64,000 nt of DNA, taken from assembly GCA_000004985.1 (NCBI GenBank), contig GG738845.1. One strand, written 5' to 3'. This document shows, in pieces, positions 39,946 through 64,000 of this stretch; position 1 is the stretch's first letter, and each line of letters starts with the position of its first letter. The notes under the pieces are model-generated. The model did not search any database and was not told the origin of the DNA. It saw nothing but the letters and a program-made list of their open reading frames with translations. The DNA comes from Naegleria gruberi (taxonomy: Eukaryota). The position numbers and the translations under genes are program-made.

Positions 39946-39951
39946 CAAAAT
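39946..39951 (-). terminator. Pol III terminator (T4 run) immediately 3' of the tRNA
   Basis: The minus strand reads ...ACTCATCA-ATTTTG directly after the discriminator base. Confidence 0.45.
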
Positions 39952-40041
39952 TGATGAGTGTGGGATTTGAACCCACGCCCTTGCGGAACACGGTATTAAT
40001 CATACCTTAACGTGTCGTCTTAGACCACTCGACCAACTCAC
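39952..40041 (-). tRNA. tRNA-Leu (anticodon AAG) with an 11-nt intron between positions 37 and 38
   Basis: The minus strand reads GGTGAGT-TG-GTC-GAGTGGTCTAA-GAC-G-ACACG-TTAAGG[TATGATTAATA]C-CGTGT-TCCGCAAGGGC-GTGGG-TTCAAAT-CCCAC-ACTCATC-A. It has a 7-bp acceptor stem with one G-U pair. The D arm is the class-II type (3-bp stem, GAGTGGTCTAA loop). The anticodon loop TTAAGGC is identical to human tRNA-Leu-AAG. The variable arm is long and the T loop is TTCAAATCC. Confidence 0.85.
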
Positions 40042-40170
40042 CATATGCATCACAAAAAACAAGCCATTTAGGATTAAATTAAAGAATTCAATTTAATGTA
40101 AGTGTGGAAGCAAAATTAACAAAAAACATTATGAAAATTTAAAAAGAATTCAAATTTACAAATAGTTAGC

Positions 40171-48268: not shown

Positions 48269-51200
48269 TTAGTTGTGAATAATTTTGAATTTGTAATTGA
48301 TGCTCGATTCATCATGGTTCACCTTTTCACAATAGCACAAGAATTTCAAGTGGTGACCCAGTACTAATTCCCTTGCTTGTTTGAAAGTTTCTGAGCCAGT
48401 GACTGGAAGTTTCTTATTTGTTGTTGCTCCTTTCTTGTAGGCAAATATTTGCTGAATAGCTCTTGTATCCAGAGTCAATGTTACATGCTTTCCAACCTTT
48501 ACTTGGAATAGGAGGTCATGATCTGGTTTGGTAAATTTATGATTGCAATGGCCACATATTTGATCTGTATCCACAAACCAGGTTGAATCTGAAGTAAGTT
48601 GTTTTTGACAATGTGGACAAACAGGAACTGTTGGACGATCTCCAATTTCTAAAATGTCTGAAATATATCCTTCCACATTTCCAACACTTTTCTCAAAGCA
48701 AGTAAACTCATAATTAATAGAATTGAGAATGGATTGTGATTGAATCTTTCTTCCATTTTTCTTTAAAAATCCTTCTTCTACTCTCAATCTGACGCTGTAT
48801 GGGAATTTCACATCACTTGCTTGTTCCAATCCACTACTAGTGGAAGGATAAATCATTGAAAATTTGTCTGCTATTAATTGAGTAGACTCGTGCATATCCT
48901 CAGTTCTTTTTACCAATATATTGTGAATAGTTACATTTGTTCTATTGCTACTAAAACCATATGCGACAGCCAATAGCATGGATGTTTCTAACAATAGACT
49001 ATCCAATCGTAAAATGATATTAGAATGTTTCTGTAATACATAAACGGAAAACTTAGTGGTATTATCATGATTATTTTCGGCTATATAAATAATCTTTCCC
49101 TCAATGTCACATCTGTGTACTCTCGAGCTATTTTCATCATTCACTACGTCTTCAACACCTCCATGAGATTGTTGAGTATCTCCAGAAATTGGTTGATCGA
49201 AATTATAATACAAGCTATGTTTGTAGGAAGAATGAGGAGCAATATTTTCAGGAATTGGATCTACACCAATGACGGAGCCCATACTGAAATTATCTTCTGG
49301 AGGAATAAATTTACAAGAGGTGTGTTGTTTGTTTGTGGTAAAGAAATATACAGGAATGAGAGGATTGGTAAATTCGCTTGAATTAGAATAATTACTCAAT
49401 TGGGAATCAGTTGTAAGATTATGTTCAGTGTGATACATTGGTGAAACAATGGAATATAATTCATCATTTGGTCCAATATAAATTCTATCCTTAAATGAAC
49501 AAACATCAAATTGGAAAATTTTGCCTTGAGAAATGTTAGGGTCAAATATTGATTTCCAATAATCATATTCATGACTACCTGAAGGGAGTAAAATTACACA
49601 AAGACTTCTTGATTTGGAACATTGAATGAGAACACTGTTGGACATGTTTGATTCATTTGCAAGTTGAGGAATTCTATTGTAAATCTCATTAAAAGAGCTT
49701 TCCAATGTTTGTCTAATATAATCATAACTCCAAACACGTTGTATTACTCCCTGAATGTTAACATAATAAGATGGGAAGAAGGCTGAATGAAGTTGTTTGT
49801 AAATGATTTCAAACTTCTTTGTGAAAGGACCATTTGAAATTCTGGAAATTAAATGATAATTTCTTTCATAATCCTGTTCACTTTGGGATGAAAAGTCAAT
49901 TCTTCTTCTTGGAGTGTTGATAATATTCTTATGTCTGACATGGGTTGGAGTTGATCTAATACCTTGGGAAGTTCTTGGAGGAGTTGAAGGTGTTGCATTA
50001 TCATCACCTGTCAAGTCCATATTATCCTCATTGGAATCTTTAGAAAGCATTGGGAATGTAAATTTTGACTCTAGTTGTTCAATATCTTGTTTCAACTCGT
50101 TAACATCTGAAGATTGAGAATTACATTTCATTTCAAAAACGTAGGATATTACAGGTCTTGGTCTGAAAATCCAATCACTATTTGAATCATGGGGATCGCT
50201 AGATGGTGTAATGTGGAATAAATTTGTTGCAATTTCAATAATACTTCCAGGTTCTAAATTCCACTTGTCTCTCATTTCTCTTAAGAGGAATACATCAAAG
50301 AAATCATTTTCTTCCAAATTTTTTTGAAGTATTTCATTATCGTGAGGTTGGGTAGGTCTTTTTAACATTTTACAAATACATAGAGACAGATTCGGATAAA
50401 TTTGTGGTGAAGAACTGAAAACTAGAATTTTCAAAACCATACTGTCTTTTGGGGAGTTAGGTTGTGATAAAGTCATACCAGAACCAATATTGGCAAATAC
50501 TTTTTCATTCAAGCATCCATTAACTGCTCTAATAAGTTTAGAAACAAATCTACCTGATGATTTTACAGTTAGAATCTTCTTTAAATGTTCCCATTGTGAA
50601 AAGAATTGATCAGTACTATTTCCTGATGATGACTGTTGAGAAAGAGAAACTGTACGTTCAGCCACTGGTGGTGCCTTTGATTTTCTGAGTTTATCTAACC
50701 AACTTTCTCCAACAACATTATTATCATTTACAGTGTTATTTTCAGTCATGACATCATCTTCAATATCCTCGTCAGCTACTACTTTGGATTTTCTGTTGGA
50801 GAAGAGTAAATTTTCAACCTCACTTTCTCTTGGATTTCCAACTTTTTTCTTAATTCCCTTTAGTCTAGTTTCCAAATCAAATCCATCTTCTCCTGATATA
50901 ACGATATTATTATTCTTTGGTGGGGATATTTGTTTAGGTTGTTGTGGTGGAGGAGCACTTTTTTGAATTTGTTGAGGGGTTGAATAATTAATGGCAGAAA
51001 CCATTTGACTGAATTGTTTGTCTCTATTATTCATTGTTGTAGTATCTTCCTCTTCACTATCAGTAACAATTAAATCATCAATATCAATTGTTGGTTTTGA
51101 AGATGTCCTATTATTCATCACTTGTTTTTGTTGTGTTAAATAAGTTGAAATGAGTGCAGAATTATTAAGTGTAGCTTGAGGTGCACTTGCAAATAGTGCT

Positions 51201-52204
51201 GCATTCACTCCACTCAATACAGCCATTGTTGGTACTGGAATAGTTGGATTTGTTTCTTCATCTGAAAAATCGTCAATATCGTCATCTTTTTCAATTTCCT
51301 TTGGTATATGATAGGATATTGAATTATTTTGAGATTTTCTTTTTTGAGTTGGTGTTTTGTGAGGTGTAGAACTATAATAGTGTGATGAAGATTTTCTTGT
51401 ACTGGCAGATGAATTATACGAGAAAGAAGGAGGAACAATAGTCTTCTCTAGAGATGGAATTATTCCTTTGTTCAATGGTTGTGACATTTGAGAAGATGTT
51501 GTAGATTTGGTTTGAGATTCCTCATCGTAATTCATATCATTATCCTCATCTGATGAAGAATAATAAATTCCTGAAATTTTTTCTGGAATTGATTTCTTTG
51601 TAATTTTTCTCTTTTTTGGTGAGGTTGATCCCTTCTTTTTCTTGTTAGATTTGTTGGATGATTTGTTTAGACTAAGTGAAACACTTGGTTCATCGAAATA
51701 TTTATCAAAATCATCGTCACTAATCACTTCATCCTCTACTACTTTGGAATTTTTCTTAGGTGTTGGTTGTTTCTTCTTTCCAATCGGTAAACTCATATTA
51801 ACTTCATCATCTTGACTTTCTCTCATAGAAGATGAGGAAGATTTCTTCTTATCAAAAACAGCAGACAAGACAGCATTGCTTTCCTCTGGACTCACATCAA
51901 TTCCAGTCTTGTTTGCATTATCTTCATTTTGTGAATCCTCATAGAATGATTGTGAATCTTGTTGTTGCTTTCCATAAATTTTGGAAAATTTTGTTGGTTT
52001 GTAAGTAATTTCTTCATCAGAATCCGAAGATGATTCTCCACGAAATTGTATTCCTCCACCTCTTCCAACAACATTATTTCCTCTAGGTATTTGTTTTGAA
52101 AGGAGTGCAAGCTGTTTTTGCTCTGCATTTTGTCCTCCAGAGAGTGGTGTCCTAATGGAAACCTTGTTAGTATTCAATGGTGCGTTATTTCTAACTTTCC
52201 ACAT
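48269..52204 (-). CDS. Large (1311 aa) Ser-rich protein with a C-terminal OB-fold-like domain carrying a C4 zinc ribbon (RPA70 DBD-C-like). The candidate class is a ssDNA-binding scaffold (CTC1/RADX/RPA1-like)
   Basis: Intron-free minus ORF. The N-terminal 800 aa are low-complexity S/D/E/K-rich. The C-terminal region has CPHCQKQLTSDSTWFVDTDQICGHCNHKF (C-x2-C-x17-C-x2-C) embedded in beta-rich sequence. The function is inferred weakly. Confidence 0.35.
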   Translation of the reverse strand: MWKVRNNAPLNTNKVSIRTPLSGGQNAEQKQLALLSKQIPRGNNVVGRGGGIQFRGESSSDSDEEITYKPTKFSKIYGKQQQDSQSFYEDSQNEDNANKTGIDVSPEESNAVLSAVFDKKKSSSSSMRESQDDEVNMSLPIGKKKQPTPKKNSKVVEDEVISDDDFDKYFDEPSVSLSLNKSSNKSNKKKKGSTSPKKRKITKKSIPEKISGIYYSSSDEDNDMNYDEESQTKSTTSSQMSQPLNKGIIPSLEKTIVPPSFSYNSSASTRKSSSHYYSSTPHKTPTQKRKSQNNSISYHIPKEIEKDDDIDDFSDEETNPTIPVPTMAVLSGVNAALFASAPQATLNNSALISTYLTQQKQVMNNRTSSKPTIDIDDLIVTDSEEEDTTTMNNRDKQFSQMVSAINYSTPQQIQKSAPPPQQPKQISPPKNNNIVISGEDGFDLETRLKGIKKKVGNPRESEVENLLFSNRKSKVVADEDIEDDVMTENNTVNDNNVVGESWLDKLRKSKAPPVAERTVSLSQQSSSGNSTDQFFSQWEHLKKILTVKSSGRFVSKLIRAVNGCLNEKVFANIGSGMTLSQPNSPKDSMVLKILVFSSSPQIYPNLSLCICKMLKRPTQPHDNEILQKNLEENDFFDVFLLREMRDKWNLEPGSIIEIATNLFHITPSSDPHDSNSDWIFRPRPVISYVFEMKCNSQSSDVNELKQDIEQLESKFTFPMLSKDSNEDNMDLTGDDNATPSTPPRTSQGIRSTPTHVRHKNIINTPRRRIDFSSQSEQDYERNYHLISRISNGPFTKKFEIIYKQLHSAFFPSYYVNIQGVIQRVWSYDYIRQTLESSFNEIYNRIPQLANESNMSNSVLIQCSKSRSLCVILLPSGSHEYDYWKSIFDPNISQGKIFQFDVCSFKDRIYIGPNDELYSIVSPMYHTEHNLTTDSQLSNYSNSSEFTNPLIPVYFFTTNKQHTSCKFIPPEDNFSMGSVIGVDPIPENIAPHSSYKHSLYYNFDQPISGDTQQSHGGVEDVVNDENSSRVHRCDIEGKIIYIAENNHDNTTKFSVYVLQKHSNIILRLDSLLLETSMLLAVAYGFSSNRTNVTIHNILVKRTEDMHESTQLIADKFSMIYPSTSSGLEQASDVKFPYSVRLRVEEGFLKKNGRKIQSQSILNSINYEFTCFEKSVGNVEGYISDILEIGDRPTVPVCPHCQKQLTSDSTWFVDTDQICGHCNHKFTKPDHDLLFQVKVGKHVTLTLDTRAIQQIFAYKKGATTNKKLPVTGSETFKQARELVLGHHLKFLCYCEKVNHDESSINYKFKIIHN

Positions 52205-53622
52205 TTTCCTAGGATTTATTTGATGATAATAGAAGGCAAAAAGTAGCCTAAAAAGTTGAATTTATATTATTTGATGATCAAAAATATTTAATTTTGTGTG
52301 ATGAAGTAAATGTATGATCTCTGTGGTTGTTGATTTTTTTTTAATGATGAAAATTTTTCAACTTGGGGCTGGAAAACATGTGTTTGAAAAATCCAGAAAA
52401 ACAAGGAATCTTAAATGACCAACAATATTTTACCAGATAAGAATCAATCATGACTGGCCAAATTATTCGAAATTTTAAACTTTTCTTCTTAAGGTGGCGG
52501 TAGGGTCTTCCAAAAATATTCCTTCAATGAAAAAAAAAATGTTTGCAATGAAATACAATTTTGCTCCTTTACATTCTCATTGAACAAGCAATTATAAGCC
52601 ATCTTCGATTCATCTTTTATTCTACTTGCCTGTTTGATGTCTAATACTCTTCAAGTTTTTATACATCAATTTTCTATCATCATCACAAATATTTAATTTT
52701 TGTTATTTATAATTTGAATGCAGGGTTACTGTGCCAGTTTCACCTAGTTTCACTCATCAGAGAATACACACGATCCAACTACAAGTTGTCTATCTAATGA
52801 ATTGGTTCCGAGATGTTTGCTAATGCTTTGATTGTGATTTTGAGCAAAGTTTTGGCTGTTTTGAAATAAGCAAACAACAAAATAATCACAAAAAAAATGA
52901 AAAGAGGGTTGTGTTTTGGTGTGGGAGTAAAATAAGTTGTTTTGTCACCAAGATTCTATAATGTAAAGAATGGATTTGTTGGTAAAGTTCCTATTCACCA
53001 CAAGGAACTGAATGGCACTATTTGTTGTCTACATTACAAGCAATTTATTGACAAATATTATGAAATGGAGAAAAAATTCACAAACTCAAACTTAGGAACA
53101 ATTCAAACAGTACAACAAAATACCTCTACTCCAAATCAATGTTATCATTCCATGTACATTCCGAAAAAGCTATTACAACTCTGGTACCTTCGACCAACAA
53201 GTGTACTAATAACAAGAAAGTTTGAATTGTGTTCATAAATGATTTTTTATTAAAATTACTAAATTTGCCATTTTGCCAATAATAGATATTCGAATATTTG
53301 TAAACCAACATTTGCACTTCCAATTAAAATAGGCGAACCGCCACCTTAATTCTTTCTTTCAATAAGAAACAATTAATATTATTTAACTGGAAATTGTTTA
53401 AAAAAAATGAGCAGTTTAGTTTTTAACTATGGTAATACTTTTGTCAATGTGCCTCCCCAACAACAAATGTTGCTACAATTAATTTGACTGGATTATTGTC
53501 GAGTATTCTTCCATCATCAACAACTTTACAAAATTCGTTAATTATGATCCGAACCAACACTCAAGCTGAACAACCGTCAACACGCACGAAGTTAGCTTTT
53601 GTGTATTAATATTATTACATTT

Positions 53623-54189
53623 TTATTGGATGATCGTAAAAACTTCAATTTCAGTAACTTTGAAAGTATTAGTGCCTGCCAAGTAGGTGTTAGCTTTAAA
53701 GCTTTGAGGTTCCATTCCACAAGGTAATTCATAGGTTGTACCAAAATTGGAAAAAGACTTTGAGTTCCTATTACAATCATCAGCAATATATATGTCATGA
53801 TTTCCAAAGGTTGGAAGATAGTGTGGATGATTGTAAATGGCTTGTTGTTTTTGGTCTTGTTTGACATTGAATTTTGTAATATGATAACTTCCATTCAATT
53901 TTTCAAGCTTGAAAAGAAATGCTGCATCGTCACAAGCAAACTCATAATTTGATTTCCAATTTTGAGATGAAAAACCTCCAAATATTTTTCCAAATTCGGA
54001 CTTGATAATTGTTAAGGTTGCTCCTTGATTATCACATTTTTCATGGAAGATTTCAGAACTGAATCCATCTTCACTTGCTCTGAATAATAATTTTGGAGTT
54101 TGTTGGCTCTTCGTGAAGGTAGATAATTCGAGACCAACATTTTCAATGGAAGAAAGAATTTGTGAGGAAACAAAGTGGTTTGGTTGCAT
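53623..54189 (-). CDS. TLDc-domain protein (188 aa)
   Basis: LLFRASEDGFSSEIFHEKCDNQGATLTIIKSEFGKIFGGFSSQNWKS...DDAAFLFKL...HDIYIADDCN matches the TLDc pattern LLYRGSRDGFSAxAFHxxCDGKGPTLTLIK...GxxFGGY...W...DxxSFLFSL. Confidence 0.55.
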   Translation of the reverse strand: MQPNHFVSSQILSSIENVGLELSTFTKSQQTPKLLFRASEDGFSSEIFHEKCDNQGATLTIIKSEFGKIFGGFSSQNWKSNYEFACDDAAFLFKLEKLNGSYHITKFNVKQDQKQQAIYNHPHYLPTFGNHDIYIADDCNRNSKSFSNFGTTYELPCGMEPQSFKANTYLAGTNTFKVTEIEVFTIIQ

Positions 54190-54315
54190 TTTTTATTGAA
54201 AATATTTTGTTGAAGGAAAAAGCTCAATTAAGGGAATAATGGAACAAAAAAAACTCAACAAGTTCGATTAGCATTGTTCTTCTTAAACCAGAAATTAGCA
54301 AGTAAATAGTGAAGG

Positions 54316-55553
54316 ATGGTTTTGAATCAAACTCATGAACATGGTGATTTAACTGACAAGAACAAGCTATTGAATCAGGAATCACCAACTAGTTATAATC
54401 CTTCTCCTAATAGTTATTATTCCAACCCTTCGGACCCATATTTACATCAGCAAGGGAGCTTGGAAAATGTAAGTTGAAAGAGTTGATTAATATCTTTCTC
54501 TGACTATTATAATAGGTTAAACAACACAATAGCAATGATGAGGAAAAGATATGTCGTTGTTGTCATGGAGTTTTAACAAGTAATGATGATTATATTTCTC
54601 CGTGCAAATGTACAGGTTCCATGAAGTTTGTTCATCGTTATTGTTTGGTATGTTTTTCAATTATCTCATATGTTAACTAGGCTTAGGATCAATGGAGAAC
54701 AGTGAGTCCAAAAGCAACATCTTTCTATCAGTGTGATATTTGCTCACATCCTTATGATATCAAAGATGTGGATGAGAATGGTAGGGTTTTAGATGAAACA
54801 GAAGTGAAAGAACAAGGTTGTGGTTATAAACCTAAATCAATACTCAAGTTTGGCACATTAGTAACTCTTGACTTTTCAATCATTCTAATTGTTTGGCAAG
54901 TATTGGTATTATTATGTGCTGGTTTCTTTGCTTTGTGTGATTATGATTATGGATTGAGAGCTAAATTGTTTGGTCTGGATATGAATATATATCTGGTTAC
55001 CTATATGTAAGTATATTAGAAATTTGAGGAAATGGATTAATAGTTCAATAATAGTTGTGGATTGGTAATGTTCTTCTTCATTATGGGCATGTTAGGATTG
55101 TGCTGTACTGGAATTGTTATCTTGAACAAGATGATGAATGACACCTTCTGTGGGAATTGTTTAACTAATGACCACTATTACTCTCATAATACATACCCAT
55201 ACTATGGCAGAAGGCACTCCAGACGTTCAGCTTTGTACCATTGGTACTGTTTTTGGCCATCCTTGTATGGTCGTCCAATATATGGTAGTTCTCCACATTG
55301 TTTCCCATTCGGTTGCTTTAATTGTGGAACTGGTTTTTCTGGAAATTGTGGAAAATGTGGTGATTGTAAAGGAGAAGGTGTATTGATTGTTCTTGTTATC
55401 ATTGTTCTTGCAGTGGCTATTGTAGGATTAGTGTTTGGTATGATTCTTATGGGATTGCTAGGCTATAGAATATTTTCTAGAAGAATTTCCGTTTTGAAAA
55501 AGAAAGACCAAGCTAAGTATCAACAAATTCAAAATTACTGGCCTCTTCCTTAA
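54316..55553 (+). CDS. RING-CH (MARCH-type) E3 ubiquitin ligase with a C-terminal TM anchor. Exons 54316..54468, 54516..54647, 54687..55006, 55055..55553. Introns 47, 39 and 48 nt
   Basis: Exon 2 gives EKICRCCHGVLTSNDDYISPCKCTGSMKFVHRYCL. Exon 3 continues DQWRTVSPKATSFYQCDICSHPYD, completing the C4HC3 RING-CH signature. The donors are GTAAGT, GTATGT and GTAAGT. The acceptors are TAATAG, GCTTAG and AATAG. Exon 4 carries a Cys/Gly/Tyr-rich segment and a TM helix (VLIVLVIIVLAVAIVGLVFGMILMGLLGY). Exons 3 and 4 are ORF-track pieces 54702..55010 and 55062..55553. Confidence 0.7.
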
Positions 55554-56707
55554 ATCCTTAAATTTCATCAATAGCATAAATAATAGACATTATAATCTCT
55601 TATTACTAGTTAAAATTAGTTATTAGAGTAAAGATGATATTAAACATGTGACGTTATAATTAACATGTTCGATATATAGGTTTGAATTTTAACAACTTCA
55701 ATAACTTCAGATTCCTCAATTTAAGTACCACTTCCAACATGGAAGTGTGCACATGCATGCTAGTTGCACTGATGGTAATTATTGGCGATACATGTTGATA
55801 TGCAATATCAGAAATAATGATGGATGTGTTCACATGCTCGTTACACAACCAAATTTGTTGAAACTTAGTGAGAAGTAAATGCATGCAGTGCTAAAACTAT
55901 ATGGCAATGAATTGTGAATGTAGACATGTGAGACATGTTCCAACTCGTGAGATTAACATGTTGATAAGGCAAATGCTCGGTTGTTGATTAGTTAGATCTG
56001 CCTTAGCAAAGCGCCACAGTCATTACCTTTAGCGTGTGGTAACCACATCCGTATTCATCATTCCTATTACTGTTGATCTTATTAATATTCCTACATTAGT
56101 GTTTGTATCCGAGAGTTCAAAAAGCAACCTCAACTTGTTGTGAGGGAAAATATGGCTGCATGTGGTAGCGAACAGAACCATAATGGATTTGTACGGGGTA
56201 ATCTCTTCACTACAAATTAGTACAAATAATTGAGGAATTGTGTGTGCACAAAGATCAATTTTGCTCCATGCTCCTCCACTAGCTCTTGCTGTATGCTGTT
56301 TGACTTTGTTCAAAACTTGGACACATGATTCTAATAGAAGCTAACCACCAAGTTGATCCTTTTCTTTTTGACATTTTCTCACAACAAAAGCATATCAATC
56401 AAGGGAATGTTCTCACCAATCATACCATTATTTTAAACTTTTATTACTGTAAGTACATGGGAGTGAGAAAAAAACACGTTCTTGTGCTCGGCCAAATTTA
56501 ACCCTTACATTCTATTTAAGGGAGATGAAAAACGTTGTTTCCACCGCGAACTACAAATTTCGTAGGTACAAAATGAACTTTTTACTGAAAAATTTCCAAA
56601 TGAGGAATGATACCACAGTGTTTTTACAATATTCTGTTGTGGTGTGCGCTTTAAGAGGCTGCTATCCATGTGAAAGTTGCAAAGATTCGAAACAAAAAAA
56701 CAACAAC

Positions 56708-59700
56708 ATGAGGATAAGAAATTATTGCTTCATTGTAATTGCCTTACTGCTACTTTGTTCAGGGGTGATTTTGGTGCGAGGTTTGTCATGCTCAAAAGAA
56801 GAAGATTGTGCTGATTCTTCAGGTTCTTGTATCAATGGAAAATGTGAGTGTTGGAATAACCATAAGACAGGTGATTATTGTGATGTATGCATTAGAGGTT
56901 ACGTTGGTGCCAATTGTGAAGATTGTGCCGCTGGTTTTACAAAAGACCCACAAGATGGGTCAACATGCTTGGCCAATTGTAATCCAGCTTGTTATAGAGG
57001 TGATTGTGTTGGCACTAATCTTTGTGAATGCAATACAGGTTGGGATGGAGCCACATGCAATGTTTGTGCTAAAGGATATAGTGGTACAGATGCTTTTGGC
57101 AATCTTTTATGCGACGTAAAAACCTGTGTTCCTGGATGTGGTTATCATGGAAAATGTGATGTTCCTCCAAGTACTTGTAAGTGTGATTATGGTTGGGAAG
57201 GGGCTGTTTGTAATATCCCTCAATGTTATGGAAACTATGCCTGTGGTAATAACTCATATTGTTCATCCGCTTTCGAATGCTCATGTGTTGAAGGTTATAA
57301 CCAAACTGCAGCTGGTTGTGTGCCAAATGTTTATAATTGTCCTGTACCATGTGGAGATCATATGAAATGTAACTCTTCATTACTTTGTGCATGTGAACAA
57401 GGTTATGATAGTATCAATGGTGCTTGTTACAAAACATGTCCTTCTAATAGTGTTAGATCTGGAACTGATTGTGTTTGTGTTGCAGGATATTCCTTAAATA
57501 ATGGTGTATGTGAAAAAGAATGTAAAGACTGTACCAATGGAGTTTGCTCCAATGGAGTTTGTACATGTAATGATGGTTTTGAAAAGAAGGGAGAGTATTG
57601 TTACAAGCCATGTTCAGTATTTACTGGAACAGTTGGTGCTACTTGTGCTATTGGTGGTATTTGTAAAGCTAATGGTCCATTCTTCTCCTGTTCGTGTTCA
57701 GAATCTGGTAAAGAAGAGTTTAATGGAGTTTGCAGAACACCTTGCAATCCTGCTTGTGGTGAAAATACTGAATGTAATGAGAATTCAATTTGTCAATGCA
57801 AATCAACACTCGATCAAGATAAATATTCATTCGATAATGCAACCAGAAAGTGTTATCCAAATTGTACCAAATGCAAATTGGAACATCAAACATGTAACAA
57901 TCCAGATGATGCAAATTGTTTCTGTGACAGAGTGAGAGGTTATTTACCAATTTATGATTCCAATGGAGTTGTCATTTCCTGTGAAAAACCATGCAATCCT
58001 GCTTGTATGGGATATTCACACTGTGTTAATGGTGATCATTGTGAATGTGATACTGGTTATACCAATTATGGAAATGAATATGGTTGTGTGAAAACCTGCA
58101 CATCAGCTTGTATTGGTTTGAGTTGGTGTAGTGACGCTATTTGTTATTGTCCTTCTGGATATCAACAACATAGTAATTCAACAAGTATTTGGTGTGAACC
58201 TGTTTGTTCAACTCCATGTGGTGCTAACATGGAATGTAGTGCTCCAGACAATTGTACTTGTAAAGCTGGATATGAAGTGATTGGAAGTGAATGTATCAAA
58301 TTATGTCCTTCTAATAGTGTTAGATCTGGAACTGATTGTGTTTGTGTTGCAGGATATTCTTTAAATAATGGTGTATGTGAAAAAGAATGTTCTCCAGAAT
58401 GTACCAATGGAGTTTGCTCCAATGGAGTTTGTACATGTAATGATGGTTTTGAAAAGAAGGGAGCTTACTGTTACAAGCCATGTTCAGGATTTACTGGAAC
58501 AGTTGGTGCTCCTTGTGCTGCTGGTGGTATTTGTAAAGCTAATGGTCCATTCTTCTCTTGTTCGTGTTCAGAATCTGGTAAAGAAGAGTTTAATGGAGTT
58601 TGCAGAACACCTTGCAATCCTGCTTGTGGTGAAAATGCTGAATGTAATGAGAATTCAATTTGTCAATGTAAATCAAATCTCGATCAAGCTAAATACTCAT
58701 TCGATAATGCAACCAGAAAGTGTTATCCAAATTGTACTAAATGCAAATTGGAACATCAAACATGTAACAATCCAGATGATGCAAATTGTTTCTGTGACAG
58801 AGTTAGAGGTTATTTACCAATTTATGATTCCAATGGTGTTGTCATTTCCTGTGAAAAACCATGTAATCCTGCTTGTATGGGATATTCACACTGTGTTAAT
58901 GGTGATCATTGTGAATGTGATACTGGTTATACTGATTATGGAAATGAATATGGTTGCGTGAAAACCTGCACATCAGCTTGTATTGGTTTGAGTTGGTGTA
59001 GTGACGCTATTTGTTATTGTCCTTCTGGATATCAACAACATAGTAATTCAACAAGTATTTGGTGTGAACCTGTTTGCTCCACTCCATGTGGTATTAATAA
59101 GCAATGTAGTGCTCCAGAAGAGTGTTCATGCAAGATTGGCTTTGATGACGTGAAAGAGGTGTGTGTTGAATCTTGCCAAGTAGGTTACTCGAGAGCCGAA
59201 GATGATGATAAGTGCTATGCCGATTGTAAAGTCTGTGGAGCTCACTCTTCTTGCTATCACTCTGAATGCGTTTGTGATTTGGGTTATCAAGTAGATGCTA
59301 GAGGTGATTGTTCTTCAGTTGTCCATGACAATAGCACAGGGAATACTACTGCAGGTAATAGTTCTACTTCTGGTGGCTGTGATCCAATATGTAATCCAAC
59401 AACTAGTTCCTGTCTGGATGGAGCTTGTATTTGTAAAGACAATTTGGAAATGATTGGTGGTGAGTGCGTTCATGTTTGTTCTTTAGATTGTGGTATTCAT
59501 GGAATTTGTCAAAATACCACAGGCAGTGCAACTTGTAACTGTACTGATTTCTTTGAAGGAATGGCATGTTCCACCTGCAAGAGTGGTTTTTCATTGATTA
59601 ATGACCGATGTGTATGTGATGATTCTTCAGGTCGTGCTTTGGTGGGTGAGAATTGTATCTGTAACTCTGTAGCCTCGTTTAAACAAGTTGGTACAGAGTG

Positions 59701-62700
59701 CGTTCGTTCTGAACCAAATTGTAGATATGGATGTGGTAATGGATTGTGTAGATTTGTGAATAATGTTACTTCAGACACTGAGTGTGTGTGTTCAGCTGGT
59801 TTCATTTCTACCAATCAATCCAATTGTAATGATTGTGATAGCAATCAAGGCTTGATTCTCTCCAATGGTTTGTGTGTATGCAATGTTAGACTTGGTTTCA
59901 GATTATCAACAATAGATGGGAAATGTAAAATTTCCACACCAATTTGTGCTGACAAATGTGGTAATGGTGAATGTCAATTCGTTGATTCCACAACTGATTT
60001 GGCAGAATGTAAATGTAATGTAGGTTATATGACTGTTCGTGGCTCTGGAAAGATGTGTTCCGAATGTGCAACAGGATACTCACTTTCAAATGGTGTTTGT
60101 AAACTCATTTGTCCTGAAGAATATTCTGGAGATGACTGTTCTACGTATACTCCAACATCTGCTTGTGTGAATCCACCATCAAACTCTCTTTCTTTCTGTA
60201 AATCTGTTGTCTCTTATCAGGTGAAAAATACCTTATATATCCAAGGAGCTCAAAGCCCATCCCAAGCCAAGGAAATGTTCTTTACCAACATGAAATCAGT
60301 AGATGAGGCTGCTAGTAATATCCTCTCTCAAGTATTGAATGAATTTGCAAAACAAAACATGTCTTGTGATTCCAATTGTATTGCTGTATCAACCAAATCC
60401 ATTTGTTACCAATACATTAGTTCATGTTCTGTTGATAATTCCAATGTTGCAGTTGAAAAGAAGCTCTGTAAAAGTGTTTGCAATTACATTTTGAATAATG
60501 AAGTTGTGACTTATCCTGATGTTTATGCTAATAGTTGTAATAGATTACCAGAGACAAATTGTTTTTATGGTACTTATTTGCCTCCAGCCACCAGCTGTTT
60601 TGGAGTTCCTTACTTGAATTCTTCAGTTTGTTCTGGAAAAGGACGTTGTGTCGATACTGACTCTTGTTCATGTAATCAAGGGTTTACAGGTAGAAACTGC
60701 CAACTCCCATTCTGTTTTAACATAGATAGCTCTGACCGTTTGGTTTGCTCATCCAATGGTGAGTGTGTTGGAGTTAACAAGTGTAATTGTAAATCTGGTT
60801 TCACTGGTAAAGACTGTTCTATCATTAATTGTAATGGAAAGAGTGAAGCTGAAGGAGGATGCTCATTCCATGGACAATGTTCTGCTGAGCACAAGTGTGT
60901 TTGTTCTGGTAACTTTGTTGGTGCTTCATGTTCAGAATGTGCAACAGGATTCACTGGAGTAAATTGTGATATTCCAATTTGTAATGGTATCAAAGCTAAT
61001 GATAAGACAGTGTGTAGCTCAAGAGGATCATGTATTGTTGATGGTGGTGAGCCAAAATGTTCTTGCTCCTCAGGATATAGTGGAACCAGTTGCCAAAACT
61101 TTAAATGTAATGATATTGACAGATCTAGTTCAGATGCTTGCTCCAAACATGGTAAATGTATAGCACAAAACACCTGTGTTTGTGCTGGTAATTTCGATCC
61201 GCTGAGATATTGTTCCACTTGTACACCTGCTTTCAATGGAACTGATTGTACAGAGAGAATTTGTTCAGATGAGTTGACTTGTAGTGCCCATGGTAAATGT
61301 AATTCCAATTTCAAGTGTGACTGTCAAGGAAACTGGGTTGGTGATTTCTGTAACCAATGTAAAGATGGATTCGTTGGAACTAATTGTCAATTTGAATGCT
61401 CACCATCAACAAAGTGTAGTGGTAGAGGATCATGCAACATGGATGGAACTTGTCAATGTACTGGAAATAGTATTGGAAAAAATTGTGAACAATGTGCAAC
61501 AGGATGGTTTGGAGCAAAATGTGACTTTTCCATTGATTCCACAAGCTTTGGATTCTCTAGTAAGGGAGATTCTTTATATGGAACTGTTTATTCCAACCTT
61601 AAAAAGAAATTTGCTTGTTCTGACCTTGTAACAACAACTGATATTCTTGGAATTGGTGCTGTATGTGTTTTGAATCCTGAAAAGAGTTCCATGGAAATTA
61701 TTTTAGGTCTCTCTGCATCCGTTAAAATTGGTAGTACTTTACAATTCAAGAAATATTTCGATTCACTTGAAACAACTCAAGTCACAATTTCAACTAAGGA
61801 TTATGTGGCAGTTTCACCACTCGCAAACTTGATTTCAGATAAGCCAAGCGTATCCAAAGCTTGTGGAAAAGTATACTTGGATGCTTCATCATCTGTTTCA
61901 ATAGATCGTAGAACTTTGCTCTTCTCGTGGTCAAATATTTTAGCTCCAACAACACATGATGCAGATACTTTGAATGCATTCCTTTCTTCAGTTACATCTT
62001 CTGGTGTTTATATTGGAGGTGCTGATTTGAGCGTAGGTTCTTACTCAGTCCAAGTAACTGTAACAAGCTCATTCTCTCTTGAAAAATCAACTTCTACCGT
62101 TTCTTTTGATGTATCTGATTTGACATCCCCAACTGTGGCTATTAAGGAAGGTCTTGAGAGTAGTATAATCATTGGTAAAAGTTCCGTCATTACACCAACT
62201 GTAACTTTCCCTTCTTGTTATAAGGGAGAGGGACCAATTAGTTATGTCTATACTTTGGATACCACAAAATCCATAAATGTTGATGTAAAACAAAAGGGTG
62301 AATTATTGATATTTAATGATGATTATACTAAAATAACTGAAGAGGGTGATTATTACTTTATTTTGACCACAACTCAAAAAGGAGCTGCTGATGTTAAGGT
62401 ACCATTCAAAGTTACAGCCAAAGCACTTCCACTTGTTGTTTCTTTCAGTGTTCGTGACATGGTTCAATCTTTTGAAAATGATGTAACTTTCACAATCATC
62501 ACTCGTGACCCAAGCAATCCAAGTAATCCTGGAGGAGATGTTGTCTTGTCATGCACCAATCTTGACACTGCCACAACTTGTGATGGATTTTCAAATTCTG
62601 CAAGTAATATTAATCAAACTACTCGCAGTTTCAAACAAGGAATGCAACCAGGAACTTATATGTTCACAGCAACCTATACTAAGGGATCTAGAAAGTCTCA

Positions 62701-64000
62701 ATCTTCTGTAAAAGTCACACTTTTGGACAAACCAAAATCAACAATTATTAGAGTGTTAGTTTCCCCTCCTAGGAGTGCTGATTTGACAGCAGTTGATCCT
62801 TCTACTGAACTAGTTCTTCAAGCTACAACAATGGATACATTGAGTTCAGATAGAGTCTTTACTTGGAGCTCTCCTGATATTGACCTTACCTCAATTACCA
62901 CTTCCAACAAGTATATTGTAATTCCAAAGAGCTCTCTCGTTCCAGGAACTTCCAATACTGTTAAAGTTAAGATTGTAGATGGCACTAGATCTGGAGAGGC
63001 TGAAATTTCTTTCTCTGTTAACTCTCCTCCAACACAAGGTATTTTAGAAGTCACACCATCCACAGGTATTGCTTTATCTGATGAATTCCAAATTAAGTGT
63101 GGAAATGGTTGGTACGATGTTCAACTTCCTTTATCTTTCAAATTCATGTACAAGGAAGAAAATCAAACAAATTGGAAAACTCTATCAGAACAATCAGAGA
63201 AGAGATCCTTGGCAACATCCTTACCATTTGGTGTGTTGCAAATCAAAGCCATTGTTTACGACTCATTGGGAGCATCGACTGAAGCAATCACTACAGTAAC
63301 CACTATACTTCCAGATGCTGGAGCAGTCCTGAGCATTTTAACCTCACAACAAGGGACAGTCACTGTTTCAACACTTGCTTCTGCTCTCAGTGTTGTTGGA
63401 TCAGTTACGGGATTGACTACAGATCAAAAAGCAGCAATGCAAGAGGCCAGTAAGACTTTTGTTAACAAGTACTTTGAACAACAATCTCAAAAAGACAGTT
63501 TGCTTGAAGAATCATCTTCCTCTGCCTCATCTAAACTTTCAGTTATTTCTTCTATCAGTAATTTTGTAAAAAATCTCCCTGATGAGACTGTTTCAATGGT
63601 TATTCAAAAATTCTCTAAAACTATGGGTTCTGCTTCTACTAGTTCCTCAATTAGTATGGGTAGTGACGATATTTCCTCATCAACCAAGTCAGCAAACTCT
63701 CTCAGAGAACACGTTACTCAAAACATGGCTAAGAGATTTATTTCTTCCTTCACCAAGAATGATTTGAAGACGATTGACGATGTTTATGCCAGTCTTGTTA
63801 GCATTCAAGTTAAATCTTCTGTCGCTGATATGCCAGCCACTAGAGGAGAGGGTGTGGACTCAAACACTTATGCAAGACTTGTCAGTATTCCAACTTTGAA
63901 TGGATTGTCAGAATTGGTTAAGGATCAGGGTGTCTCTTCATTCAAACTTTCATCAACATTTGGTGATAATTCCAAGATTAAGAGTTTAGATAGTGTTAAA
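56708..64000 (+). CDS. Giant secreted EGF/laminin-EGF-repeat protein (over 2430 aa inside the window, 3' end beyond the window). Signal peptide, about 45 Cys-rich EGF-like modules, then a Cys-poor beta-rich region with a REJ/PKD-like character
   Basis: The ATG at 56708-56710 gives MRIRNYCFIVIALLLLCSGVILVRG (a signal peptide). The frame then stays open to the window end. Repeated CxxxxCxNGxCxCxxGxxGxxC modules are typical of tenascin/laminin-type EGF. From about 61500 the sequence switches to S/T/V-rich beta-strand repeats with recurring LLFSWSN / VFTWSSPD motifs. The gene is absent from the ORF track because no stop codon occurs before position 64000. Confidence 0.8.
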   Translation, partial: MRIRNYCFIVIALLLLCSGVILVRGLSCSKEEDCADSSGSCINGKCECWNNHKTGDYCDVCIRGYVGANCEDCAAGFTKDPQDGSTCLANCNPACYRGDCVGTNLCECNTGWDGATCNVCAKGYSGTDAFGNLLCDVKTCVPGCGYHGKCDVPPSTCKCDYGWEGAVCNIPQCYGNYACGNNSYCSSAFECSCVEGYNQTAAGCVPNVYNCPVPCGDHMKCNSSLLCACEQGYDSINGACYKTCPSNSVRSGTDCVCVAGYSLNNGVCEKECKDCTNGVCSNGVCTCNDGFEKKGEYCYKPCSVFTGTVGATCAIGGICKANGPFFSCSCSESGKEEFNGVCRTPCNPACGENTECNENSICQCKSTLDQDKYSFDNATRKCYPNCTKCKLEHQTCNNPDDANCFCDRVRGYLPIYDSNGVVISCEKPCNPACMGYSHCVNGDHCECDTGYTNYGNEYGCVKTCTSACIGLSWCSDAICYCPSGYQQHSNSTSIWCEPVCSTPCGANMECSAPDNCTCKAGYEVIGSECIKLCPSNSVRSGTDCVCVAGYSLNNGVCEKECSPECTNGVCSNGVCTCNDGFEKKGAYCYKPCSGFTGTVGAPCAAGGICKANGPFFSCSCSESGKEEFNGVCRTPCNPACGENAECNENSICQCKSNLDQAKYSFDNATRKCYPNCTKCKLEHQTCNNPDDANCFCDRVRGYLPIYDSNGVVISCEKPCNPACMGYSHCVNGDHCECDTGYTDYGNEYGCVKTCTSACIGLSWCSDAICYCPSGYQQHSNSTSIWCEPVCSTPCGINKQCSAPEECSCKIGFDDVKEVCVESCQVGYSRAEDDDKCYADCKVCGAHSSCYHSECVCDLGYQVDARGDCSSVVHDNSTGNTTAGNSSTSGGCDPICNPTTSSCLDGACICKDNLEMIGGECVHVCSLDCGIHGICQNTTGSATCNCTDFFEGMACSTCKSGFSLINDRCVCDDSSGRALVGENCICNSVASFKQVGTECVRSEPNCRYGCGNGLCRFVNNVTSDTECVCSAGFISTNQSNCNDCDSNQGLILSNGLCVCNVRLGFRLSTIDGKCKISTPICADKCGNGECQFVDSTTDLAECKCNVGYMTVRGSGKMCSECATGYSLSNGVCKLICPEEYSGDDCSTYTPTSACVNPPSNSLSFCKSVVSYQVKNTLYIQGAQSPSQAKEMFFTNMKSVDEAASNILSQVLNEFAKQNMSCDSNCIAVSTKSICYQYISSCSVDNSNVAVEKKLCKSVCNYILNNEVVTYPDVYANSCNRLPETNCFYGTYLPPATSCFGVPYLNSSVCSGKGRCVDTDSCSCNQGFTGRNCQLPFCFNIDSSDRLVCSSNGECVGVNKCNCKSGFTGKDCSIINCNGKSEAEGGCSFHGQCSAEHKCVCSGNFVGASCSECATGFTGVNCDIPICNGIKANDKTVCSSRGSCIVDGGEPKCSCSSGYSGTSCQNFKCNDIDRSSSDACSKHGKCIAQNTCVCAGNFDPLRYCSTCTPAFNGTDCTERICSDELTCSAHGKCNSNFKCDCQGNWVGDFCNQCKDGFVGTNCQFECSPSTKCSGRGSCNMDGTCQCTGNSIGKNCEQCATGWFGAKCDFSIDSTSFGFSSKGDSLYGTVYSNLKKKFACSDLVTTTDILGIGAVCVLNPEKSSMEIILGLSASVKIGSTLQFKKYFDSLETTQVTISTKDYVAVSPLANLISDKPSVSKACGKVYLDASSSVSIDRRTLLFSWSNILAPTTHDADTLNAFLSSVTSSGVYIGGADLSVGSYSVQVTVTSSFSLEKSTSTVSFDVSDLTSPTVAIKEGLESSIIIGKSSVITPTVTFPSCYKGEGPISYVYTLDTTKSINVDVKQKGELLIFNDDYTKITEEGDYYFILTTTQKGAADVKVPFKVTAKALPLVVSFSVRDMVQSFENDVTFTIITRDPSNPSNPGGDVVLSCTNLDTATTCDGFSNSASNINQTTRSFKQGMQPGTYMFTATYTKGSRKSQSSVKVTLLDKPKSTIIRVLVSPPRSADLTAVDPSTELVLQATTMDTLSSDRVFTWSSPDIDLTSITTSNKYIVIPKSSLVPGTSNTVKVKIVDGTRSGEAEISFSVNSPPTQGILEVTPSTGIALSDEFQIKCGNGWYDVQLPLSFKFMYKEENQTNWKTLSEQSEKRSLATSLPFGVLQIKAIVYDSLGASTEAITTVTTILPDAGAVLSILTSQQGTVTVSTLASALSVVGSVTGLTTDQKAAMQEASKTFVNKYFEQQSQKDSLLEESSSSASSKLSVISSISNFVKNLPDETVSMVIQKFSKTMGSASTSSSISMGSDDISSSTKSANSLREHVTQNMAKRFISSFTKNDLKTIDDVYASLVSIQVKSSVADMPATRGEGVDSNTYARLVSIPTLNGLSELVKDQGVSSFKLSSTFGDNSKIKSLDSVK
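57436..59170 (+). repeat. Near-identical tandem duplication (2 x about 867 bp, over 95% identity) inside the EGF-repeat gene. It duplicates a block of about 8 EGF modules (289 aa)
   Basis: Copy 1 starts tgtccttctaatagtgttagatctggaactgattgtgtttgtgttgcaggatattcc at 57436. Copy 2 starts with the identical string at 58304. The ORF-track shadow ORFs 57501..57935 and 58368..58961 (MVYVKKNV...PMEFAPMEFVHVMMVLKRRE...) are the same out-of-frame reading of the two copies. They are offset by 867 nt, with a 3-nt indel (KDC versus SPEC). Confidence 0.8.

What the first reader, a model, noticed from the sequence alone, without database searches (positions are those of the whole stretch)
57436..59170. Recent 867-bp in-frame tandem duplication of an 8-EGF block inside the giant gene
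Two adjacent copies are over 95% identical at the nucleotide level. Both start with tgtccttctaatagtgttagatctggaactgattgtgtttgtgttgcagg and contain the same out-of-frame ORF MVYVKKNV...PMEFAPMEFVHVMMV. They differ by a few substitutions and one 3-nt indel. This indicates a very recent duplication, or possibly an assembly collapse or expansion artefact. It is a hotspot for unequal crossing-over and for copy-number variation between strains.
Basis: seen in the sequence. Interest (0 to 1): 0.5.

Follow-up and report, generated by a model that had tools for sequence, protein, structure and literature searches.

The report
Tandem EGF-block duplication in Naegleria gene
A large surface-protein gene of the amoeba Naegleria gruberi carries two adjacent, in-frame copies of an eight-module cysteine-rich (EGF-like) block; the repeat is real but ordinary, and its uneven similarity shows it did not arise in one very recent step.

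Summary
The repeat is real. Copy A is 57437-58303 (867 nt) and copy B is 58304-59173 (870 nt). They are adjacent and in frame, inside a single-exon N. gruberi gene for a 2628-aa predicted type I membrane protein (EGF-like array, REJ domain, one TM). It is the only direct repeat of 80 nt or more in the window.

The identity is mosaic, not uniformly above 95%:
- First 768 nt: 96.7%.
- Next 45 nt: 82%.
- Last 54 nt of each unit: 50%, which is the background for unrelated EGF modules in this gene.

The near-identical tract (about 813 nt) is therefore shorter than the 867-nt period. A single clean tandem duplication cannot give this.

Differences in the core are enriched for synonymous changes (dN/dS 0.23, p = 3e-4), so both copies are constrained and the repeat is not an assembly artefact. 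Core divergence (dS about 0.09) far exceeds that to a near-identical environmental relative (2 mismatches in 1163 coding nt).

Most likely history: an older block duplication kept similar by gene conversion or unequal exchange. A recent duplication followed by replacement of one tail remains possible.

The shared out-of-frame ORF is a by-product. Copy-number variation could not be tested. This is an ordinary example of repeat-array evolution and of low interest.

The parts
56708..64000 (+). Host gene: N. gruberi 'predicted protein', 2628 aa. Uninterrupted ORF from ATG 56708, running about 594 nt beyond the window end.
   Evidence: open frame. (P0001: 100% identity, 100% coverage, named Naegleria gruberi). 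(full sequence with C-terminal Ser/Thr-rich stretch, one hydrophobic TM-like segment and a short basic tail).
57338..57436 (+). Module U: the six-Cys EGF-like module immediately upstream of copy A (aa 211-243). It is not part of the near-identical repeat.
   Evidence: It is 50-67% identical to the last module of copy A, which is the background level for same-type modules.
57437..58303 (+). Copy A of the block (867 nt, 289 codons, aa 244-532): one four-Cys half module plus seven six-Cys EGF-like modules.
58304..59173 (+). Copy B of the block (870 nt, 290 codons, aa 533-822).
57437..58204 (+). Near-identical tract of copy A; its partner is 58304-59074. 25 differences in 768 nt (96.7%). Sharp left edge at 57437/58304.
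   Evidence: For codons 1-263: dS 0.093, dN 0.021.
58205..58249 (+). Intermediate zone in module 8; its partner is 59075-59119. 8 differences in 45 nt (82%).
   Evidence: differs from the core rate (p = 9e-5) and from the tail rate (p = 8e-6); max-chi-square breakpoint at 58249.
58250..58303 (+). Divergent tail of copy A (NCTCKAGYEVIGSECIKL). It forms the junction with copy B and has no close relative anywhere in the window.
   Evidence: 50% identical to the copy B tail and 56% to the module U tail. blastn-short found no donor.
59120..59173 (+). Divergent tail of copy B (ECSCKIGFDDVKEVCVES).
   Evidence: synonymous sites are saturated over codons 274-290.
58391..58393 (+). Codon TCT (Ser) present in copy B and absent from copy A (gap after 57523). 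B keeps the Cx3Cx3C spacing (CEKECSPEC) while A has CEKECKDC, so this is probably a deletion in A.
57501..57935 (+). Out-of-frame (+1) ORF in copy A, 144 aa. A by-product of the coding sequence.
58368..58961 (+). Out-of-frame (+1) ORF in copy B, 197 aa. A by-product of the coding sequence.
   Evidence: in a codon-shuffle test, an alternative-frame open stretch at least as long as the observed 198 codons appeared in 17.7% of shuffles.
60623..61522 (+). Teneurin/tenascin-type EGF repeats of the same protein (about aa 1306-1605).
   Evidence: PF25024 EGF_TEN 2.3e-20, plus PF23106 and PF07974.
62594..63328 (+). REJ domain match (aa 1963-2207).
   Evidence: PF02010 REJ, E = 3.9e-35, 121.8 bits against a cut-off of 25.

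Best explanation
The feature is a real, in-frame, intragenic tandem duplication of an eight-module EGF-like block. It lies in the extracellular array of a Naegleria gruberi type I membrane protein: signal peptide, about 30 EGF-like modules, REJ domain, Ser/Thr-rich stalk and one TM.

Both copies are translated and under purifying selection. This is shown by the substitution pattern.

The inferred history has two stages. The block was duplicated well before the present near-identity arose, most plausibly by unequal exchange between in-register EGF modules. The two copies were then kept alike by gene conversion or unequal sister-chromatid exchange. The latest tract ran from the left edge of the unit (57437/58304) to about 58204-58249 inside module 8. 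An earlier tract reached a little further, which left the 82% zone. The last 54 nt escaped homogenisation and drifted to background similarity.

The functional consequence is also inferred. The duplication adds about 289 residues, or eight rigid disulphide-bonded modules, to the ectodomain, which lengthens or diversifies a binding array. Since homogenisation, modules 2-4 have accumulated amino-acid changes, while modules 5-8 are almost frozen.
For: - Repeat geometry and reading frame. The annotated protein contains both copies.
- Three identity tiers: 96.7%, 82% and 50%, with significant breakpoints.
- The tail of A matches neither the tail of B nor the upstream module above the 0.41-0.63 background. 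No one-step duplication with an 867-nt period can leave only 813 nt alike.
- Synonymous sites in the tail are saturated, while core dS is 0.093.
- The synonymous excess in the core (p = 2.8e-4) and dN/dS of 0.23 show both copies are constrained.
- dN/dS is 0.8 in codons 30-129 against 0.02 in codons 130-263 (Fisher p = 0.012).
- There is no third close copy in the protein; the next best match is 22-29% identical.
- EGF-like nature: HMMER homology to insect MEGF10/Nimrod-type arrays, E = 4e-46 to 1e-35. All Cys align. The AF2 model has pLDDT 85.7. The top PDB fold matches are tandem EGF arrays.
Against: - Only one genome of this organism could be examined, so the order of events is inferred from a single pair of sequences.
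- Erosion of a conversion-maintained repeat from its edges would be expected at both ends. Here the left edge is sharp and the first 87 nt are 98.9% identical.
- Gene conversion needs pre-existing similarity, so homogenisation must have been continuous since the duplication. That is an extra assumption.
- A donor for an ectopic replacement of one tail could lie elsewhere in the 41-Mb genome, which was not searchable here.
- No orthologue was found to date the duplication.
Confidence: 0.5

Rival explanations
1. A recent tandem duplication of the full 867-nt unit, followed by a second local event that replaced the last 55-100 nt of one copy. The second event would be an ectopic gene conversion from another EGF module elsewhere in the genome, or a template-switch junction that copied an in-register EGF half-module.
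For: - The left edge is sharp and there is uniform core divergence, with no significant heterogeneity of synonymous differences across the core.
- The genome holds many EGF-like modules that could act as donors.
- If copy B's tail was the one replaced, the replaced tract could extend rightwards without any coincidence of boundaries.
Against: - No donor was found in the 64-kb window.
- The 82% intermediate zone is not expected from one replacement tract.
- If copy A's tail was the one replaced, the tract must end exactly at the unit boundary. This holds because 58304 onward is identical to 57437 onward for 56 nt.
Confidence: 0.27
2. One reading: a single, very recent, clean tandem duplication, with all differences having accumulated since.
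For: - 96.6% identity over 786 nt.
- A perfect in-frame, in-phase arrangement.
- The first 56 nt are identical.

Against: - The last 54 nt are 50% identical and their synonymous sites are saturated, while the core has dS 0.09. That is a rate difference of more than 10-fold within one module.
- The breakpoint is highly significant (0 of 2000 permutations).
- The junction module is not a chimera of the flanking modules at core-level identity.
- Core divergence is much larger than the divergence to the closely related lineage in L001.
Confidence: 0.15
3. An assembly artefact in the Sanger NEG-M assembly. Either two haplotypes of a single block were placed in tandem, or a collapsed longer array is shown as two copies.
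For: - N. gruberi NEG-M is reported as heterozygous, and it is the only assembly of the species (PMC9928731).
- The related metagenome contig L001 stops 134 nt before the repeat.
Against: - The copies differ at 3.3% of core sites and 50% of tail sites. Coding divergence to the related lineage is 2 mismatches in 1163 nt.
- The differences show a coding signature, a synonymous excess with p = 2.8e-4.
- The junction preserves the frame and the Cys pattern.
- The longest perfect run between the copies is 119 nt, so 700-800-nt Sanger reads can separate them.
Confidence: 0.03

Closest known systems
Concerted evolution and tandem duplication of EGF-like repeat blocks in surface receptors. Insect Nimrod/Eater/MEGF10-type NIM-repeat arrays are an example.
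   Same: - Arrays of six-Cys EGF-like modules in the ectodomain of a single-pass membrane protein.
- Modules 6-8 of the unit align Cys-for-Cys with insect NIM repeats at 30-36% identity.
- Module 8 fits the published NIM motif CxPxCxxxCxNGxCxxPxxCxCxxGY (PMC4073527).
- Adjacent repeats are far more alike than distant ones, as expected from block duplication plus homogenisation.
   Different: - The CCxGY/EMI motif that defines the Nimrod superfamily is absent.
- The organism is a heterolobosean amoeba, not an animal.
- The repeat unit is an eight-module block present only twice.
- The protein also carries a REJ domain, which Nimrod proteins lack.
- That Eater repeats evolve in concert is recalled from memory (Somogyi et al. 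2008) and was not checked here.
REJ-domain proteins: sea-urchin sperm receptor for egg jelly (suREJ) and polycystin-1/PKDREJ.
   Same: - A Pfam REJ domain match at E = 3.9e-35.
- A large extracellular region with adhesive-type modules upstream of REJ.
- A single C-terminal TM, as I recall for suREJ1.
   Different: - No GPS, PLAT or polycystin channel domains were detected.
- There is no C-type lectin or PKD repeat.
- The duplicated block lies far upstream of REJ and is unrelated to it.
Intragenic tandem segmental duplications that create copy-number-variable exonic repeats, such as human LPA kringle IV-2 and mucin VNTRs.
   Same: An in-frame block of disulphide-rich modules repeated head to tail at high identity. 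In principle it is a substrate for unequal crossing-over.
   Different: - Only two copies are present.
- The copies are 3.3% diverged, with a longest perfect match of 119 nt.
- No population data show any variation in copy number.

Membership tests
Tandem (head-to-tail) intragenic duplication | Two adjacent copies in the same orientation with no spacer, and the reading frame preserved. | tested here: met
   Copies at 57437-58303 and 58304-59173. One continuous ORF. The annotated protein contains both.
Tandem (head-to-tail) intragenic duplication | For a single recent event: similarity is uniform over the whole period, and the junction is explained by the flanks. | tested here: not met
   Identity tiers of 96.7%, 82% and 50%. 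The junction tail matches neither flank above background.
EGF-like domain | Six cysteines with C4-x-C5 spacing, recurring every 30-45 residues. | tested here: met
   Seven six-Cys modules plus one four-Cys module per unit, with eight CxC motifs.
EGF-like domain | Recognised by curated EGF profile HMMs (Pfam). | tested here: not met
   Unit A has no family at E <= 0.01. The best matches are EGF_TEN at E = 0.19 and cEGF at E = 0.28. A PDB sequence search gave 0 hits at E <= 1.
EGF-like domain | Sequence homology to established EGF arrays, and an EGF-like fold. | tested here: met
   phmmer E = 3.7e-46 to 8.6e-36 to P0013, P0014 and P0004; of these, P0004 is a source-named insect MEGF10 protein carrying Pfam EGF families. 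AF2 of modules 6-8 gave pLDDT 85.7, all short beta-hairpins. The top Foldseek PDB matches are NELL2/NELL1 EGF arrays, WIF-1 EGF1-3, SCARF1 and DLL4. These are weak: best E is 2.6e-3 and TM is 0.3-0.4.
Nimrod superfamily (NIM-repeat phagocytosis receptors) | NIM repeat motif CxPxCxxxCxNGxCxxPxxCxCxxGY (PMC4073527). | tested here: inconclusive
   The strict pattern matches only module 8 of each copy. The relaxed Cys/GY pattern matches 8 modules in the protein.
Nimrod superfamily (NIM-repeat phagocytosis receptors) | A CCxGY motif immediately N-terminal to the NIM repeats (PMC4073527, PMC7718733). | tested here: not met
   P0001 has no CC dipeptide at all.
REJ/polycystin-1 family | REJ domain. 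| tested here: met
   PF02010, E = 3.9e-35, 121.8 bits against a cut-off of 25, at aa 1963-2207.
REJ/polycystin-1 family | GPS cleavage motif, PLAT domain and multi-pass polycystin channel region. | tested here: not met
   Pfam on the 2430 aa in the window and on the C-terminal 197 aa gave none of these, even at E <= 10 for the C-terminus. Only one hydrophobic segment is visible.
Copy-number-variable exonic repeat (VNTR-like) | Different copy numbers among individuals or strains. | not testable with these tools
   There is only one N. gruberi assembly. The related contig L001 ends before the repeat. The JGI metagenome scans gave 0 hits.

The most novel reading that the evidence does not exclude
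The protein is a heterolobosean particle-binding or adhesion receptor. Its NIM-like EGF modules, the type used by animal phagocytosis receptors such as Nimrod, Eater, Draper and MEGF10, are being expanded and diversified by block duplication plus gene conversion. Modules 2-4 of the duplicated block would then be under relaxed or diversifying selection (dN/dS about 0.8), while modules 5-8 are frozen. That would be an amoebal counterpart of animal EGF-repeat phagocytic receptors, and a sequence-level trace of ongoing homologous recombination in Naegleria.
Probability: 0.1. Interest if true: 0.45.

Novelty: new member of a known kind. Interest (0 to 1): 0.15.

Why it matters
The finding has modest value.

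- It documents that a Naegleria surface-protein gene has grown by in-frame duplication of a block of EGF-like modules.
- The copies carry the signature of later homogenisation. This is indirect sequence evidence for homologous recombination or gene conversion in an organism whose sexual cycle has never been observed.
- For annotation and assembly, it flags an 867-bp repeat that short-read assemblies may break or collapse.

It does not reveal a new kind of element or mechanism.

Tried and rejected
- Tandem Repeats Finder found nothing. Its longest period is 500, so this says nothing about an 867-nt period.
- Pfam on the unit gave no significant family. A PDB sequence search gave 0 hits.
- The look-up of encoding contigs had nothing on record for P0001 or for the 1311-aa neighbour. 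The 188-aa TLD-domain neighbour gave one ENA metagenome contig, L001. It is nearly identical to the window but ends at window 57303, before the repeat.
- Two exact-pattern scans of JGI metagenome contigs found nothing, one using the unit start and one the 119-nt identical run.
- A homologue search with the REJ/C-terminal region returned nothing, not even the protein itself, after 8000 word-sharing candidates. It is therefore uninformative about orthologues.
- The representative search with the unit found no orthologue or paralogue above about 38% identity.
- The unequal-crossover chimera model predicts a junction made of the 5' part of module 8 plus the 3' part of upstream module U. It was tested and rejected at recent-event identity: 56% against the roughly 97% expected.
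- A donor for either divergent tail was sought in the window by blastn-short and none was found.
- The out-of-frame ORF was considered as an overlapping gene and rejected. The +1 frame of this Cys-rich coding sequence is often open, with an alternative-frame stretch at least as long as the observed 198 codons appearing in 17.7% of codon shuffles. The ORF is also truncated in copy A by one synonymous change of the main frame (GTG vs GTT at 57932-57934).
- The Fritz-Laylin 2010 genome paper is not held. No paper mentions PRJEB11402.

Full report
**What the window is.** The + strand frame containing the finding is open from 56453 to the window end. It has an ATG at 56708 followed by a hydrophobic signal-like N-terminus. 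The 2430-aa translation is 100% identical over 100% of its length to a 2628-aa 'predicted protein [Naegleria gruberi]' on a 1.56-Mb scaffold (P0001). The window is therefore N. gruberi NEG-M nuclear DNA, and the gene has no intron in this part.

Pfam finds teneurin/tenascin-type EGF repeats (aa 1306-1605) and a REJ domain (E = 3.9e-35, aa 1963-2207). The complete protein ends with a Ser/Thr-rich stretch, one hydrophobic segment and a short basic tail. No GPS, PLAT or channel domains are detected. The protein is a large single-pass surface protein of 2628 aa, which is large rather than giant.

**The observation.** Copy A is 57437-58303 (867 nt, 289 codons). Copy B is 58304-59173 (870 nt, 290 codons). 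They are directly adjacent and in frame.

The first 56 nt are identical and include the quoted 50-mer. One codon (TCT, 58391-58393) is present only in B. B keeps the Cx3Cx3C spacing that A has lost, so this is probably a deletion in A. Nothing else in the 64-kb window is repeated over 80 nt or more. No other part of the protein is more than 29% identical to the unit. TRF is silent only because its period limit is 500.

**The identity is mosaic.** A sliding comparison and a codon-by-codon list show three tiers:
- 57437-58204 against 58304-59074: 25 differences in 768 nt (96.7%).
- 58205-58249 against 59075-59119: 8 differences in 45 nt (82%).
- 58250-58303 against 59120-59173: 27 differences in 54 nt (50%).

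The intermediate zone differs significantly from both neighbours (p = 9e-5 and p = 8e-6). A max-chi-square scan puts the main breakpoint at 58249, and 0 of 2000 permutations reached that value. Whole-unit identity is 93.1%, not above 95%.

The 50% value equals the background between unrelated, same-length EGF module tails of this gene, which is 0.41-0.63. Synonymous sites in the tail are saturated, whereas core dS is 0.093.

**Why this excludes one clean duplication.** A one-step tandem duplication with period P leaves P nucleotides alike. Here only about 813 of 867 are alike.

I tested the two possible registers. If the duplicated segment ended at 58303, tail A should equal tail B. It is 50% identical. 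If it began 54 nt upstream of 57437, or if unequal crossing-over between the upstream module U and module 8 made a chimeric junction, tail A should equal the end of U. It is 56% identical. Neither holds, and no donor for either tail exists in the window. At least two events are therefore required.

**Real, and constrained.** In the 263-codon core, 14 of the 27 differences are synonymous, although only 20% of sites are synonymous (binomial p = 2.8e-4). dN/dS is 0.23. Both copies have therefore evolved as translated sequence since they were last identical.

Amino-acid changes are concentrated in codons 30-129 (modules 2-4), with 12 non-synonymous and 4 synonymous changes and dN/dS of 0.8. Codons 130-263 have 1 non-synonymous and 9 synonymous changes, dN/dS 0.02 (Fisher p = 0.012).

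An ENA metagenome contig (L001) from a very close relative aligns to window 51013-57303. It shows 2 mismatches in 1163 coding nt and about 0.5% mismatches overall. The copy-to-copy core divergence of 3.3% is several-fold to about 20-fold larger. The last homogenisation therefore predates that split, and allelic haplotypes stitched in tandem cannot explain the repeat. The longest perfect run between the copies is 119 nt, well within what Sanger reads can resolve. An assembly artefact is therefore unlikely (about 3%).

**Most likely history.** My preferred explanation (about 0.5) is an older duplication of the eight-module block. The copies were then kept alike by gene conversion or unequal sister-chromatid exchange. 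The most recent tract covered the unit from its left edge to about 58204. An earlier tract reached about 58249. The last 54 nt were never included.

The main rival (about 0.27) is a recent full-unit duplication followed by ectopic replacement of one tail from an EGF module elsewhere in the genome. The sharp left edge and uniform core favour it. The 82% zone and the lack of a donor count against it. The whole genome could not be searched here.

It is credible only if some unknown local process scrambled 54-100 nt.

**What the modules are.** Each unit has eight CxC motifs: one four-Cys half module and seven six-Cys modules, 46 Cys in all. Pfam does not call them, and no PDB sequence matches.

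An exhaustive HMMER search over 1.84 billion representatives finds no orthologue. It does show that modules 6-8 are homologous to EGF arrays of multi-EGF proteins, at E = 3.7e-46 to 8.6e-36 and 36-38% identity. One of these (P0004) is named as an insect MEGF10 protein by its source, and the aligned set (P0003-P0007, P0010) are insect MEGF10/11-like proteins. All Cys align.

Module 8 fits the published NIM motif CxPxCxxxCxNGxCxxPxxCxCxxGY (PMC4073527). The CCxGY motif that defines the Nimrod superfamily is absent. The modules are therefore NIM-like, and the protein is not a Nimrod member.

An AlphaFold model of modules 6-8 is confident (pLDDT 85.7). Its best PDB fold matches are tandem EGF arrays (NELL2, NELL1, WIF-1, SCARF1, DLL4), though these are weak (best E = 2.6e-3). 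'8-EGF block' is acceptable shorthand.

**The out-of-frame ORF.** It exists in both copies because the copies are alike. It is 144 aa in A and 197 aa in B. The difference arises because a synonymous change of the main frame (GTG vs GTT at 57932-57934) creates a TGA in the +1 frame of copy A. In a codon-shuffle test, an alternative-frame open stretch at least as long as the observed 198 codons arose in 17.7% of shuffles. It is a by-product, not a gene.

**What could not be tested.** Copy-number variation between strains, and the copy number in relatives, remain open:
- There is only one N. gruberi assembly (PMC9928731).
- L001 stops 134 nt before the repeat.
- Two JGI metagenome scans found nothing.
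- The REJ-region homologue search was uninformative.

The repeat is a plausible substrate for unequal exchange, but 3.3% divergence and short perfect runs would reduce its efficiency. 'Hotspot' is conjecture.

**Verdict.** This is a genuine but ordinary case of EGF-array growth by block duplication with later homogenisation, in a lineage-specific Naegleria surface protein. It is a new member of a known kind and of low interest (0.15).

Noticed in passing
window 52494-53347 (approx.), compared with L001: An ~850-nt insertion is present in the window but absent from the near-identical metagenome contig L001. It has terminal inverted repeats (GGTGGCGGTAGGG... / ...CGAACCGCCACC) flanked by TTAA on both sides. 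L001 has a single TTAA at the empty site. There is no long ORF inside. It looks like a polymorphic non-autonomous (MITE-like) DNA transposon with a piggyBac-type TTAA target duplication.
   Followed up: partly
L001 (ENA ERZ929261 / ERR1078381 / PRJEB11402, contig k127_107772), aligned to window 51013-57303: An environmental 'metagenome' assembly contains a very close relative of N. gruberi NEG-M. Overall identity is 98.2-98.9% including indels, and there are only 2 mismatches in 1163 coding nt. The contig ends 134 nt before the tandem repeat. No paper mentioning the project was found.
   Followed up: partly
window 57977-58303 and 58847-59173 (modules 6-8 of each copy): These modules resemble the insect Nimrod 'NIM' type of EGF repeat, and module 8 fits the strict motif. 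The nearest non-self relatives are multi-EGF proteins, among them a source-named insect MEGF10 protein (P0004). The protein lacks the CCxGY motif, so it is not a Nimrod member.
   Followed up: partly
window 57524-57823 vs 58394-58693 (codons 30-129 of the unit) against 57824-58225 vs 58694-59095 (codons 130-263): After homogenisation, amino-acid changes accumulated almost only in modules 2-4 (dN/dS about 0.8). Modules 5-8 show only one (dN/dS about 0.02; Fisher p = 0.012). The cause could be relaxed constraint, diversifying selection or chance with small counts. It is unresolved.
   Followed up: partly
window 39951-40043 (-): The single tRNA gene in the window is 91-93 nt long (Rfam tRNA, 47.4 bits). 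ARAGORN could not assign the anticodon, so it probably contains an intron.
   Followed up: no
window 60200-60620 (aa ~1165-1305 of the protein): A cysteine-poor or irregular-Cys segment lies between the N-terminal EGF-like array and the teneurin-type EGFs. It has no Pfam match and its nature is unknown.
   Followed up: no
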